A DNA stretch of 64,000 nt from Escherichia coli (GTDB taxonomy: Bacteria; Pseudomonadota; Gammaproteobacteria; Enterobacterales; Enterobacteriaceae): assembly GCF_016903815.1 (NCBI RefSeq), contig NZ_CP069973.1; one strand, 5' to 3'. Shown in pieces: positions 51,704 through 54,700 of the stretch. Made by a program: the position numbers. Every line of letters begins with the position of its first letter. Position 1 is the stretch's first letter.

Positions 51704-54700
51704 TTAAACAAAAAAACGAAGCAAGCATACGCCTGATGGCGGTCCAAAAAAAAGAGTCATCTTGCCTAAGAGTATTGGCAGGATGGTGAGATTGAGCGAC
51801 AATCGAGTTACACCGTCGCTTAAAGTGACGGCATAATAATAAAAATATGAAATTCCTCTTTGACGGGCCAATAGCGATATTGGCCATTTTTTTAGCGCAA
51901 CATCTGCGGCAAATTCCCTTCTCCATACAGGTGTAGTGCACCGACTGCGACCACATAGCGCCCCGGCGGCATGGCGCATAATTTGTCCCGCCAGGCGAGA
52001 TTTCGCTGATGCATCAGCACATCGTACAGCGATTGACTGAACGTATTAGGCAGCGTTATTTCATTATTTTGCGGCGGCGCATTCAGCCACCAGCTCATCA
52101 TTTGTTGCAGCAACCGTGCATTGGTGTGCCAGTGGGTCAGCGTATCGTCCAGCAGTGCCAGTCCGTTGTCAGGGAGCTGGAGCAACATGGCAATCTGGTT
52201 TTCAGCCCCTTCCAGTTCAATCACGGGTTTATGTTGTTGCTTCGCCGCCTGCAATAGCTGGTAATCGATACCGTATTCTGCCCGCAGCCCCAGTTTTTGT
52301 GCCTGCGTCGCCTGAAGAACCATCGCGATTTGCCACAGCGGTTGGGTAGAAAAGAGTGAGGGAGAAATGCCCATCTCCTGGCTAATGTGCTGCAGGTTTT
52401 GGAGTTGCTCCTCGCTAATGCGCTCTTCCAGCGCCTCGCAGGCAGGCAAATTAGCAAAAGGCGTATCGCTGGTGGAAACATCCGCCTCGACGATCAGCGC
52501 ATCGGCGTTTTTGAGCTTTTTGAGCAAACGGGTGGGCAGGGGAGCCATATCGTGGCTGCCCATATGAATACTGCCAATCAGATGAAAATGGCGATTGCCG
52601 GGAAGAGAGATATCGATAGCAGGCCAGGTGTAATGATTACCGCGCAGCGCGGCCCAAAGCGTTTTTACCCGGTACAACAGATCCATACGACCTCCCTTTG
52701 TGAAATATCATGCTAGCGCGCGGGGAGGGATGGCGCAAATGGAGTTATGAGGCTTGTTCAGTGGTAGCTTAAATATGATCGAAAAATTGTTTTTGCTTTG
52801 AAACGAAAGACTGCACCGGTGTTGGTGGCGTCAAAATCGCCGAGGCGTTCCCTGAAGGCCGGGGCAGCCCACATGGATGTGGGCTGAGGGCGCGTTTTAC
52901 AGGGATGTTACCTCGCGCCCGACCCGGTAGCCGCAAGGGATAAGCTGAGGGTACCGCGCAGCGGCGATTTTGTTCGCCAGAGCCCGGGGGTGCAGGGGGC
53001 GGCGGCGATTGGCCGCCCCCTGCGCGCTCCCTGCGCCAGTCACTTTATATGGCATTACTCATAAAAGGAGCGCAACAAGAACTGGATCTCACAAACGCAT
53101 TAAGTAAATACCAATCATTCCTTCGGTTTAAACCGCAGCAATCGGTTGGCGTTACTCACTACGGTAATCGACGAGAGCGCCATTGCCGCTCCGGCAACCA
53201 CCGGGTTAAGCAGTGTTCCAGTGAACGGCCACAAAATACCGGCGGCGACCGGAATACCAATGCTGTTGTAGATAAACGCACCGAGCAGGTTCTGCTTCAT
53301 ATTGCGCAGCGTTGCGCGGGAAATCGCGAGCGCATCTGCAACACCCATCAGGCTATGGCGCATCAGGGTAATCGCCGCGGTTTCAATGGCAACATCACTG
53401 CCGCCACCCATCGCAATACCGACATCCGCCTGAGCCAGCGCTGGCGCGTCGTTAATGCCGTCGCCCACCATTGCCACCTGACGTCCTTCACTTTGCAGAC
53501 GTTTGATCGCTTCGGCTTTACCGTCCGGTAGCACCCCGGCTATCACCTCATCAATCCCTGCTTCTTTGGCGATCGCATTGGCGGTGGTTGGGTTATCCCC
53601 GGTTAGCATCACCAGACGATATCCCGCTTTATGCAGGCGTTGCAGCGCCGCCACGCTATCACTACGCAATGGATCGCGTACAGCCAGCAGGGCTACCGCT
53701 TTCCCGTCAACCGCCAGCAGCACAGGCGTTGCCCCTTGCGATGCCTGAGCTGAAATATCTGCCTCAATCGCTTTAGTATCAACTTGCTGGTCATTTAACA
53801 GCGCCTGATTGCCCAGCAATACCGCATGACCTTCAGCTTCACCGCTCACACCCAGCCCGCGCAATGTGCGGAAACCGTTGACCTGCGGTAGCTGCATATC
53901 ACCTGCTTTATCGAGGATCGCCCGTGCCAGCGGGTGGCTGGAACCTTGCTCCAGCGCCGCCGCCAGACGCAATGCCTGCGCTTCATCAACATCAGCAAAC
54001 GTTTTTACTGCGACAACCTGCGGTTTACCTTCGGTCAGCGTCCCGGTTTTATCGAACACTACGGTGTCGAGCGTACTGGCGCGTTGCAGAGCGTCGGCGT
54101 CCCGCACCAGCACACCAAACTCAGCCGCCCGCCCGACGCCCGAAATAATCGACATCGGCGTCGCCAGTCCCAGCGCACACGGACAGGCGATAATCAGCAC
54201 CGTGGTGGCAATCACCAGGGTATAGACAATCTGCGGTGCCGGACCAAAGAAATACCAGATTGCCGCACTGATCAGCGCAATGACTACCACCACCGGCACA
54301 AACACAGCGGAGATTTTATCCGCCAGTTGGCCGATTTCAGGCTTGCTGCTCTGGGCCTGGCGCACCATGCGAATGATTCGTGACAGCGTAGTATGGCTGC
54401 CGACCGCACTGGCACGAAACAGCACACTGCCGTCCTGTACCACTGTCCCGGCATGGACGCTATCGCCTTCGCCTTTTTGCTGCGGGATTGGTTCGCCCGT
54501 CAGCATCGCTTCATCCAGCCACGCTTCGCCCTGGGTAATCTCGCCATCTACCGGCACGCGATCGCCGGTCGTCAGGCGCAGCAACATACCTGGCTGCACT
54601 TCCGCCAGCGGCACGCTTTTTTCACCTTCGTCAGTTACCAGGCGCGCCGTCGGTGGGGTTAAATCGAGTAATTTCTCCAGCGCCTTTGAAGAACGCTGAC

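What the first reader, a model, noticed from the sequence alone, without database searches (positions are those of the whole stretch)
52720..53060. Unexplained GC-rich, highly structured non-coding element where K-12 encodes ybaQ
Between ybaP and copA there is no ybaQ-like ORF. Instead about 250 bp at roughly 70% G+C carries multiple perfect hairpins, including a 12-bp GC stem at 52992..53023, a repeated gctgaggg motif and a GNRA-like ccGCAAgg loop. That composition and density of secondary structure is atypical for an E. coli intergenic region and does not match the REP, ERIC/IRU, tRNA or terminator architectures I know. It may be a structured ncRNA, a foreign-DNA remnant or a recombination scar.
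Basis: partly seen in the sequence, partly recalled or inferred. Interest (0 to 1): 0.65.

Follow-up and report, generated by a model that had tools for sequence, protein, structure and literature searches.

The report
TRIP1e intergenic repeat, already described
The GC-rich hairpin-rich stretch between ybaP and copA is one copy of TRIP1, a repeat family named in 1999 and found in essentially every E. coli; its function is still unknown, but its conserved fold carries two textbook binding sites for the regulator CsrA.

Summary
In detail: ybaQ is absent, and about 270 bp (52810-53076, 64-66% G+C) fold into conserved hairpins. It is not unexplained or foreign. It is TRIP1e, described by Li et al. 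2024 (PMC10888264) as lying 124 bp upstream of ybaP and 38 bp downstream of copA; the window matches both distances exactly. The TRIP1 family (Rudd 1999) occurs in 5425 of 5426 complete E. coli genomes, at 1-10 places each. The ybaP-copA copy is in 346 genomes; 4834 have ybaQ instead.

What I add:
- The + strand structure is backed by covariation: 70 pairs, 93.7% paired against 42-45% in slid controls, and 22 pairs with compensatory changes.
- Relatives exist in Klebsiella and Pseudocitrobacter.
- The core resembles the Rfam motif TwoAYGGAY. The window copy scores 31.5 bits, below the 43-bit cut-off; a sister copy in Pseudocitrobacter scores 49.2.
- Both core hairpins present ANGGAN loops, the CsrA binding consensus. 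Rfam files TwoAYGGAY in the same clan as CsrB.

Function stays unproven. I found no consensus promoter or terminator, and a published CsrA CLIP-seq table lists no peak at the K-12 copy.

Verdict: an already known element. The CsrA reading is a new, testable lead of modest probability.

The parts
52810..53076 (+). TRIP1e repeat, core as defined in the literature (about 265 bp). Looser family similarity extends over about 52789-53098.
   Evidence: The copy is 94.5% identical over 272 bp to the K-12 lysO-aqpZ copy, TRIP1a. It lies 124 bp from the ybaP start and 38 bp from the copA stop, exactly as Li et al. 2024 define TRIP1e. The wider extent comes from the family alignments.
52816..52847 (+). 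P1, 5' arm of the long closing helix. It pairs with 52957-52987.
   Evidence: A 16-nt inverted repeat lies at 52832-47 / 52957-72. The helix is extended in the minimum-energy fold. In the family alignment it has 26 pairs, 92.8% of cells paired, and 7 pairs with compensatory change.
52957..52987 (+). P1, 3' arm.
52865..52886 (+). Hairpin H1: CAGCCCACA-UGGA-UGUGGGCUG. It can also be read as the hexaloop AUGGAU closed by a C-G pair.
   Evidence: The stem is a perfect 10-bp inverted repeat. Across the family 98.8% of cells are paired and 4 pairs show compensatory change, for example A-U to G-C in Klebsiella. It aligns to the first AYGGAY hairpin of Rfam TwoAYGGAY.
52888..52920 (+). Hairpin H2: an outer stem GGGCGCG/CGCGCCC with an inner loop ...UUACAGGGAUGU...
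   Evidence: The outer stem is 99.5% paired with 2 compensatory pairs. Positions 52897-52908 are the only site in the 64-kb window within one mismatch of RUACARGGAUGU that keeps the GGA. H2 aligns to the second TwoAYGGAY hairpin.
52931..52940 (+). Small CC-GCAA-GG hairpin followed by a third conserved GGA.
   Evidence: The tetraloop varies as GCAA, GUAA, GGAA and GAAA among Escherichia copies. It is GAAG in some copies and UGCA in Klebsiella, so the GNRA reading is only partly supported. The surrounding predicted helices are poorly supported.
52992..53023 (+). Hairpin H3: a 12-bp G+C stem with the conserved loop GGCGAUUG.
   Evidence: The stem is a perfect inverted repeat. Four pairs show compensatory change, such as C-G to A-U in the dusC copies and a different stem in the asmA-yegH type, while the loop sequence is kept.
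53024..53030 (+). P4, 5' arm (GCGCUCC). It pairs with 53067-53073 (GGAGCGC).
   Evidence: The arms covary to CGUUCAC/GUGAACG in the asmA-yegH type and the Pseudocitrobacter type C. The helix is 94.9% paired with 4 compensatory pairs. So the AAGGAG here is a helix arm, not a ribosome-binding site.
53067..53073 (+). P4, 3' arm.
52687..52760 (.). ybaP upstream region shared with K-12. It is not part of the repeat.
   Evidence: It aligns with K-12 up to about 52760, after which the two sequences are unrelated.

Best explanation
Identity (about 0.97 sure). The element is TRIP1e, the ybaP-copA copy of the TRIP1 intergenic repeat family of E. coli. In this lineage it occupies the slot where most strains have ybaQ plus REP units.

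Structure (about 0.85 sure). One strand, the window + strand, folds into a conserved multi-helix structure that selection maintains. The helices are a long closing helix P1 around two adjacent hairpins H1 and H2, then a G+C hairpin H3, then a helix P4.

Relationship (about 0.75 sure). The P1-H1-H2 core is an enterobacterial variant of the TwoAYGGAY RNA motif.

Mechanism (inferred, about 0.3 sure). When the + strand is transcribed, H1 and H2 present two ANGGAN loops 28 nt apart, which one CsrA dimer can bridge. Transcription would come from read-through or pervasive transcription, because no promoter of its own is visible. The repeat would then act as a CsrA-binding module. It could soak up some CsrA, or it could put the transcript that carries it under CsrA control.

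Spread and turnover would come from recombination among copies, as published for TRIP1, and not from a transposase of its own.
For: Identity:
- The position matches the published TRIP1e definition to the base.
- The copy is 94.5% identical to K-12 TRIP1a.
- The family is present in 5425 of 5426 complete E. coli genomes, and this locus type in 346.
- G+C content and fold energy match the paper.

Structure:
- The single sequence folds with z = -5.7.
- Across 27 copies from Escherichia, Klebsiella and Pseudocitrobacter, 70 pairs are 93.7% paired, against 42-45% when the 3' partners are slid.
- 22 pairs carry changes on both sides (3-9 when slid; shuffle mean 13.1; 0 of 500 shuffles reach 22).

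Strand:
- The consensus fold is -81.2 kcal/mol on + and -67.8 on -.
- In the + structure G-U cells outnumber A-C cells 49 to 10.
- One-sided changes are mostly C-G to U-G.

TwoAYGGAY:
- It is the only Rfam match. The window copy scores 31.5 bits, E = 0.007, over the full length of the model. K-12 TRIP1a scores 30.6 bits.
- A sister copy with the same architecture in Pseudocitrobacter scores 49.2 bits, above the cut-off of 43.

CsrA:
- H1 (ACAUGGAUGU) and H2 (ACAGGGAUGU) both fit the consensus (A/U)CANGGANG(U/A) and the CsrB repeat CAGGA(U/C/A)G. These consensuses are established knowledge quoted from memory.
- The H2 site is unique in the window.
- The loops stay constant while the stems covary.
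- Gardner and Eldai 2015 proposed TwoAYGGAY as a CsrA binder.
- Rfam places TwoAYGGAY and CsrB in one clan, CL00106.
Against: - No sigma-70-like promoter or intrinsic terminator is found on either strand, and no promoter is conserved in the upstream alignment. In the window the structured strand is antisense to both neighbouring genes.
- Supplementary Data 1 of Potts et al. 2017, taken to be their CsrA CLIP-seq peak table, contains no number with the coordinate prefixes of the K-12 TRIP1a copy. The neighbouring genes are not flagged either. Reads that map to several copies may have been dropped, so this is weak evidence.
- The window copy is below the Rfam gathering score. The H2 loop is AGGGAU, not AYGGAY.
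- Two K-12 copies (putP-efeU and yegH-asmA) lack H1 and H2 yet persist. The hairpins are therefore not needed for a copy to be retained.
- The covariation comes from only about four sequence types, so there are few independent events.
- G-T pairs are also tolerated in single-stranded DNA.
Confidence: 0.4

Rival explanations
1. A DNA-level repeat with no RNA function. On this view TRIP1 is a palindromic, recombination-prone intergenic repeat in the same niche as REP/BIME, BoxC and ERIC. Its hairpins would matter as cruciform or single-stranded DNA, for example as a protein binding or recombination site, or not at all. Copies would persist through gene conversion and hitch-hiking.
For: - The repeat sits where other strains or species carry REP or BoxC: K-12 has three REP units at ybaQ-copA and BoxC at alx-sstT.
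- Every Klebsiella copy examined abuts a REP unit.
- Orientation differs between strains at the same locus.
- Copy number varies from 1 to 10.
- Published rearrangements occur between copies.
- No promoter or terminator is found.
- Truncated copies persist.
Against: - Compensatory changes keep the helices while the loop sequences stay fixed across genera.
- The strand asymmetry of G-U over A-C is not expected for duplex DNA.
- There are no terminal inverted repeats and no associated gene.
- The core matches a motif also found in distant taxa.
Confidence: 0.3
2. A cis-acting RNA structure at gene ends that works without CsrA. It would be transcribed as part of a neighbour's 3' or 5' untranslated region. 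There it would block exonucleases, insulate convergent transcription, or alter expression of the adjacent transporter genes.
For: - In most loci examined the 3' end of the repeat faces the 3' end of a convergent gene.
- In all four Klebsiella loci and several E. coli loci the repeat follows a co-oriented gene within about 40-150 bp.
- Li et al. suggest effects on the neighbouring genes.
Against: - In the window, in K-12 TRIP1a and in the E. whittamii alx-sstT copy, the structured strand is antisense to both neighbours.
- This reading does not explain why two GGA loops are invariant.
Confidence: 0.2
3. An independent trans-acting small RNA gene that base-pairs with targets.
For: The structure is conserved and the sequence is intergenic and non-coding.
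Against: - There is no promoter or terminator.
- Orientation and locus vary.
- No conserved single-stranded seed is apparent.
- It matches no described sRNA family in Rfam.
Confidence: 0.05
4. One reading: a remnant of foreign DNA or a scar of recombination peculiar to this locus.
For: Both junctions with K-12-like sequence are abrupt, and one lies exactly at the copA stop codon, which is TGA here and TAA in K-12. G+C is above the window mean of 51.9%.
Against: - The same sequence is in nearly every E. coli at other loci.
- It is also in other Escherichia species, Klebsiella and Pseudocitrobacter.
- There are no phage hits.
- The 'plasmid' hits examined are chromosome fragments.
Confidence: 0.01

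Closest known systems
TRIP1 repeats of E. coli (Rudd 1999; Li et al. 2024, PMC10888264), type TRIP1e
   Same: Sequence, length, G+C content, predicted fold energy and exact position between ybaP and copA all agree. The copy is a member.
   Different: Nothing differs for this copy. The paper does not mention the diverged asmA-yegH copies, relatives outside E. coli, covariation, TwoAYGGAY or CsrA.
TwoAYGGAY RNA motif (Rfam RF01731; Weinberg et al. 2010)
   Same: - A long closing helix P1 surrounds two adjacent hairpins with GGA-containing loops, joined by an AG-rich linker.
- It occurs in several copies per genome in gamma-proteobacteria.
- A sister copy in Pseudocitrobacter passes the Rfam cut-off.
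   Different: - The window copy scores 31.5 bits against a cut-off of 43.
- The second loop is AGGGAU, not AYGGAY.
- TRIP1 carries an extra 3' domain (H3 and P4) of about 110 nt that is not in the Rfam model.
- No enterobacterial sequence was found in the stored part of the original seed alignment.
CsrB/CsrC/RsmZ-type RNAs that sequester CsrA (Rfam clan CL00106)
   Same: GGA motifs are presented in hairpin loops that fit the CsrA consensus. Rfam places TwoAYGGAY in the same clan.
   Different: - TRIP1 has only two strong sites plus one or two weaker GGA motifs, against about 18-22 in CsrB.
- It has no recognisable promoter or terminator.
- No CLIP-seq peak is reported.
- It is a dispersed repeat, not a single regulated gene.
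REP/BIME, BoxC and ERIC/IRU enterobacterial intergenic repeats
   Same: It occupies the same niche: intergenic, mostly beyond gene 3' ends, palindromic, variable between strains, and interchangeable with these repeats at a given locus.
   Different: It has no sequence similarity to them. It is much longer and more complex than REP. Its copy number is low, 1-10 per E. coli genome and at least 13 in one Klebsiella chromosome.

Membership tests
TRIP1 repeats, type TRIP1e | High sequence identity to K-12 TRIP1a (published: 94%) | tested here: met
   The copy is 94.5% identical over 272 bp to the K-12 lysO(ybjE)-aqpZ copy. That copy lies 158 bp from the lysO start, as published for TRIP1a.
TRIP1 repeats, type TRIP1e | Location 124 bp upstream of the ybaP start and 38 bp downstream of the copA stop | tested here: met
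   The ybaP start is at 52686 and the repeat begins at 52810. The copA stop begins at 53115 and the repeat ends at about 53076.
TRIP1 repeats, type TRIP1e | About 265 bp, 62-65% G+C, very stable predicted RNA fold (published ensemble energy -149.6 kcal/mol) | tested here: met
   G+C is 63.8-65.7%. The 297-nt stretch has a minimum free energy of -150.4 and an ensemble energy of -154.2 kcal/mol.
TwoAYGGAY RNA (RF01731) | Two adjacent hairpins whose terminal loops read AYGGAY | tested here: inconclusive
   The H1 loop AUGGAU fits. The H2 loop is AGGGAU here and AAGGAC or AGGAC in other copies, with a purine or a gap where Y is expected.
TwoAYGGAY RNA (RF01731) | A closing helix P1, often long | tested here: met
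   P1 has 26 pairs, 92.8% of cells paired, and 7 compensatory pairs. Weinberg's note says P1 is often very large.
TwoAYGGAY RNA (RF01731) | Score at or above the Rfam gathering threshold of 43 bits | tested here: not met
   The window copy scores 31.5 bits and K-12 TRIP1a 30.6 bits. The Pseudocitrobacter type C copy scores 49.2 bits, but only over model positions 46-112.
CsrB/Rsm-type CsrA-sequestering RNA | Several GGA motifs in hairpin loops that fit the CsrA consensus | tested here: met
   H1 is ACAUGGAUGU and H2 is ACAGGGAUGU. H2 is within one mismatch of RUACARGGAUGU and is the only such GGA-keeping site in the window. The consensus itself is quoted from memory of the CsrA and RsmE literature.
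CsrB/Rsm-type CsrA-sequestering RNA | An independent transcription unit with a promoter and a terminator | tested here: not met
   No promoter-like or terminator-like site is found in 52600-53200 on either strand. Actual expression cannot be tested with these tools.
CsrB/Rsm-type CsrA-sequestering RNA | Bound by CsrA in the cell | tested here: inconclusive
   Supplementary Data 1 of Potts et al. 2017, taken to be the CLIP-seq peak table, contains no number with the coordinate prefixes of K-12 TRIP1a. The neighbouring genes are not flagged. How reads from repeated sequence were handled is unknown.
REP/BIME | A palindromic unit of about 35 nt matching the REP consensus | tested here: not met
   The only REP match in the window is at 44617-44650, not in this interval.
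ERIC/IRU | The conserved ERIC core sequence | tested here: not met
   No match is found with up to 3 mismatches anywhere in the window.
MITE (non-autonomous transposon) | Terminal inverted repeats and target-site duplication | tested here: not met
   No inverted repeat sits at the ends of the element. The only flanking pair (52697-706 / 53086-95) has one arm in ybaP upstream sequence shared with K-12. The Klebsiella copies have well-defined ends without inverted repeats. No clean empty site was found, so duplications could not be judged.
RSA (BEE95) repeats | 150-151 bp, six copies in K-12 | tested here: not met
   K-12 has three places for this family in a sensitive search. RSA has six copies of 150/151 bp. 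The RSA sequence itself was not available.

The most novel reading that the evidence does not exclude
TRIP1 repeats are the enterobacterial branch of the TwoAYGGAY RNA class and work as dispersed CsrA-binding RNA modules. On this reading, differences between strains in copy number (1-10), orientation and locus, including the gain of TRIP1e in place of ybaQ, would tune free CsrA. Alternatively they would place neighbouring transporter genes such as copA, aqpZ and lysO under Csr control.
Probability: 0.2. Interest if true: 0.7.

Novelty: already known. Interest (0 to 1): 0.3.

Why it matters
As a finding it is ordinary. The stretch is a published repeat (TRIP1e) and should simply be annotated as such; RefSeq records leave it blank.

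What could matter is function. TRIP1 has had none assigned since 1999. The evidence here is that selection maintains a single-strand structure, that the core resembles TwoAYGGAY, and that two invariant loops fit the CsrA consensus. Together these turn 'unknown repeat' into a specific experiment that is cheap to run in E. coli. If confirmed, it would add a strain-variable layer to the Csr network and give the first function for the TwoAYGGAY class.

Tried and rejected
- **RSA/BEE95.** I first guessed from memory that this was the old RSA/BEE95 repeat. I rejected that because RSA has six copies of 150 bp in K-12 and this family has three places.
- **Plasmid location.** The Klebsiella and E. coli 'plasmid' records I examined carry housekeeping genes and are chromosome pieces.
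- **Phage origin.** There is no match in the phage collection.
- **Small ORF or ribosome-binding site.** The AAGGAG at 53066-71 is an arm of the covarying helix P4. The ATG codons that follow it in some copies are not conserved. One-base insertions and deletions among copies break every reading frame.
- **Sigma-54-like promoter.** TGGCGTCAAAATCGC lies inside P1, so a transcript started there would lack the P1 arm. The spacing also differs by one base in the asmA-yegH type (reading).
- **Sigma-70 promoter.** No conserved one was found upstream.
- **Local inversion as the cause of the two orientations.** The flanks also differ between the alleles, so they are separate alleles and not a flip.
- **Type C in E. 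coli.** The Pseudocitrobacter type C copy is absent from E. coli.
- **Transcription start data.** The Thomason et al. 2015 paper was not held in the library.
- **Weinberg seed alignment.** I found no enterobacterial member in the stored part.
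Full report
**1. The observation**

The interval between ybaP (- strand, 51892-52686) and copA (- strand, 53115-55619) is 428 bp and has no ybaQ. A tblastn search with K-12 YbaQ finds nothing in the whole window.

Aligned with K-12, homology runs from ybaP to about 52760. It stops there and resumes exactly at the copA stop codon, which is TGA here and TAA in K-12. K-12 has ybaQ and three REP units in between.

- a perfect 12-bp stem at 52992-53003 / 53012-53023;
- a perfect 10-bp stem at 52865-74 / 52877-86;
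- GCTGAGGG twice, at 52883-90 and 52944-51;
- ccGCAAgg at 52931-38.

G+C is 65.7% over 52810-53060, not 70%. Only single 100-bp windows reach 68-71%. The + strand folds at -150.4 kcal/mol with z = -5.7. The - strand folds at -132.8 kcal/mol with z = -4.8.

**2. What it is**

The central 271 bp is a repeat.
- A sensitive BLAST search finds it in 5425 of 5426 complete E. coli genomes, at 1-10 places each (median 3). It is never annotated.
- The full ybaP-copA arrangement occurs in 346 genomes. In contrast, 4834 genomes have ybaQ.
- Other loci are lysO-aqpZ, yohP-dusC, a diverged copy at asmA-yegH, and alx-sstT in E. whittamii.

A literature search on the neighbouring gene names gave the name. 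These are the TRIP1 repeats, first described by Rudd in 1999. Li et al. 2024 (PMC10888264) define five types.
[quoted passage not shown] It is 265 bp long, 94% identical to TRIP1a, and present in 232 of 6725 genomes.
- All five types have 62-65% G+C.
- The predicted RNA ensemble energy of TRIP1e is -149.6 kcal/mol.

The window fits to the base: 52686 + 124 = 52810, and 53115 - 38 = 53077. The same paper reports that TRIP1a and TRIP1c occur in both orientations and that recombination between copies rearranges chromosomes. I had seen the two orientations independently. The function is stated to be unknown.

**3. What I could add: structure**

I aligned 27 copies: E. coli, E. albertii, E. whittamii, two unnamed Escherichia species, Klebsiella pneumoniae and Pseudocitrobacter. 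They support a common fold on the window + strand:
- P1, a long closing helix (52816-47 with 52957-87);
- H1 (52865-86);
- H2 (52888-920);
- H3 (52992-53023);
- P4 (53024-30 with 53067-73).

For these 70 pairs, 93.7% of cells form standard pairs, against 42-45% when the 3' partners are slid by 1-3 columns. Twenty-two pairs have changes on both sides. Slid controls give 3-9, shuffles average 13.1, and 0 of 500 shuffles reach 22.

Examples of compensatory change:
- In H1 an A-U pair becomes G-C in Klebsiella.
- In H3 C-G pairs become A-U in the dusC copies, and the asmA-yegH type has a different stem with the same loop, GGCGAUUG.
- P4 changes from GCGCUCC/GGAGCGC to CGUUCAC/GUGAACG.

The helices that RNAfold predicts in the 52925-52955 and 53035-53065 regions are not supported.

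The + strand is favoured:
- The consensus energy is -81.2 kcal/mol on + against -67.8 on -.
- In the + structure G-U cells outnumber A-C cells 49 to 10.
- One-sided changes are mostly C-G to U-G.

One caveat applies. The covariation comes from about four sequence types, so the number of independent events is small.

**4. What I could add: relatives**

With E-values allowed up to 10, Rfam gives one credible match, TwoAYGGAY (RF01731). It covers 52831-52970 on the + strand at 31.5 bits and E = 0.007, over the full model but below the gathering score of 43. K-12 TRIP1a behaves the same way.

In Pseudocitrobacter the mdlB-glnK spacer holds two copies head to head. One is an ordinary TRIP1-like copy. 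The other, which I call type C, is diverged but has the same architecture and shares sequence blocks with the asmA-yegH type. Type C scores 49.2 bits, above the cut-off.

Weinberg et al. 2010 describe TwoAYGGAY as two hairpins with AYGGAY loops inside an often very long P1. Their seed alignment holds several copies from Psychromonas ingrahamii. I read TRIP1 as an enterobacterial variant of that motif with an added 3' domain (H3 and P4).

Klebsiella has at least 13 places in one chromosome. All four copies I examined abut a REP unit at their 5' end. The 'plasmid' hits I examined are mislabelled chromosome fragments, and there are no phage hits.

**5. How it may work**

H1 reads ACAUGGAUGU and H2 reads ACAGGGAUGU. 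Both fit the consensus of CsrA/RsmE sites, (A/U)CANGGANG(U/A). They also resemble the CsrB repeat CAGGA(U/C/A)G and the SELEX consensus RUACARGGAUGU. I quote these three consensuses from memory as established knowledge.
- The H2 site is the only one in 64 kb, on either strand, within one mismatch of the SELEX consensus that keeps GGA.
- The two GGA motifs are 28 nt apart, within the range one CsrA dimer can bridge.
- The loops stay invariant while the stems covary.
- Gardner and Eldai 2015 proposed TwoAYGGAY as a CsrA binder.
- Rfam puts TwoAYGGAY in clan CL00106 with CsrB.

My best mechanistic guess is therefore a CsrA-binding RNA module, at about 0.3 probability.

Evidence against:
- There is no consensus promoter or terminator.
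- Here the structured strand is antisense to both neighbours.
- Supplementary Data 1 of Potts et al. 2017, which I took to be their CLIP-seq peak table, has no entry at the K-12 TRIP1a coordinates.
- Two K-12 copies lack H1 and H2 altogether.

Rival readings are a DNA-level recombination-prone repeat with no RNA role (0.3), a CsrA-independent RNA structure in untranslated regions (0.2), and an independent sRNA (0.05).

**6. Verdict**

The element is already known as TRIP1e. It is a real, non-coding, structured repeat, and it is ordinary as a genome-scan finding. The link between TRIP1, TwoAYGGAY and CsrA, the relatives outside E. coli and the asmA-yegH type are not in the TRIP1 paper. They are leads, not results.

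Noticed in passing
L001 3001-3271 vs L004 2501-2768; L035 5119-5387 vs L007 2501-2771; L036 6502-6666 vs L014 8804-8988: At lysO-aqpZ, yohP-dusC and asmA-yegH the repeat lies in opposite orientations in different strains. The short flanks on each side also differ, so these are distinct alleles and not a simple flip. Li et al. 2024 report the two orientations for TRIP1a and TRIP1c, but not for asmA-yegH.
   Followed up: partly
L014 8732-9036 (-), L011, L021, L024, L028; K-12 L036 6502-6666: A diverged TRIP1-like type sits between asmA and yegH in E. coli, E. albertii, E. whittamii and two unnamed Escherichia species. It is about 86% identical over 190 nt, keeps H1 and H2 intact, and has a different H3 stem. 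The K-12 copy is truncated at its 5' end and lacks H1 and H2. The TRIP1 paper does not mention this locus.
   Followed up: partly
L030-L033, about 2925-2960 in each: In Klebsiella pneumoniae all four copies examined start directly after a REP-like unit (GCCGGGTGGCGGCTAACGCCTTACCCGGCCTAC) at the same junction. L030 has the start of a second copy about 100 nt downstream. L031 and L032 have BoxC-like sequence on the 3' side.
   Followed up: no
L013 1854-2159 (-) and 2165-2450 (+); the same arrangement in L027: Pseudocitrobacter carries two divergent copies head to head in one spacer (mdlB-glnK in P. faecalis). Only the second copy passes the Rfam TwoAYGGAY cut-off.
   Followed up: partly
L037 5547-5944 vs L023 4939-5518: Between alx and sstT, K-12 has BoxC-like repeats where E. 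whittamii has a TRIP1 copy. Li et al. report TRIP1d at this locus in 23% of E. coli genomes. My search with the E. whittamii arrangement found no E. coli genome covering more than 51% of it, so orientation or flanks must differ.
   Followed up: partly
L012 1-760: A metagenome-assembled contig joins the 3' end of dusC, a TRIP1 copy and copA, with part of another copy inverted at the contig start. This is either an assembly chimera through the repeat or a real TRIP1c/TRIP1e recombinant; Li et al. report one of that kind.
   Followed up: no
window 53115-53117: The copA stop codon is TGA here and TAA in K-12. Sequence homology between the two alleles ends exactly at this codon.
   Followed up: no
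window 52687-52758: The first 72 nt upstream of ybaP also match, at 94%, a 128-kb E. coli plasmid record (NZ_CP137697.1, 33666-33736).
   Followed up: no
strain 7/2, NZ_CP023820.1 (L002, L038): Genomes with a copy identical to the window's have six places for the repeat, against three in K-12. The lysO-aqpZ copy in the same genome is 95.2% identical to the ybaP-copA copy. The two further loci were not located.
   Followed up: partly
PLSDB records CP125156.1, NZ_CP079601.1, CP110563.1, NZ_CP095250.1; RefSeq NZ_CP148327.1: Several records labelled as plasmids carry housekeeping genes such as rimO, selD, topB, sppA and aqpZ-lysO-hcp. One is 5.37 Mb long. They look like chromosome or chromosome fragments.
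   Followed up: partly
window 44617-44650: The only REP unit in the 64-kb window that matches the consensus pattern lies here, on the - strand.
   Followed up: no
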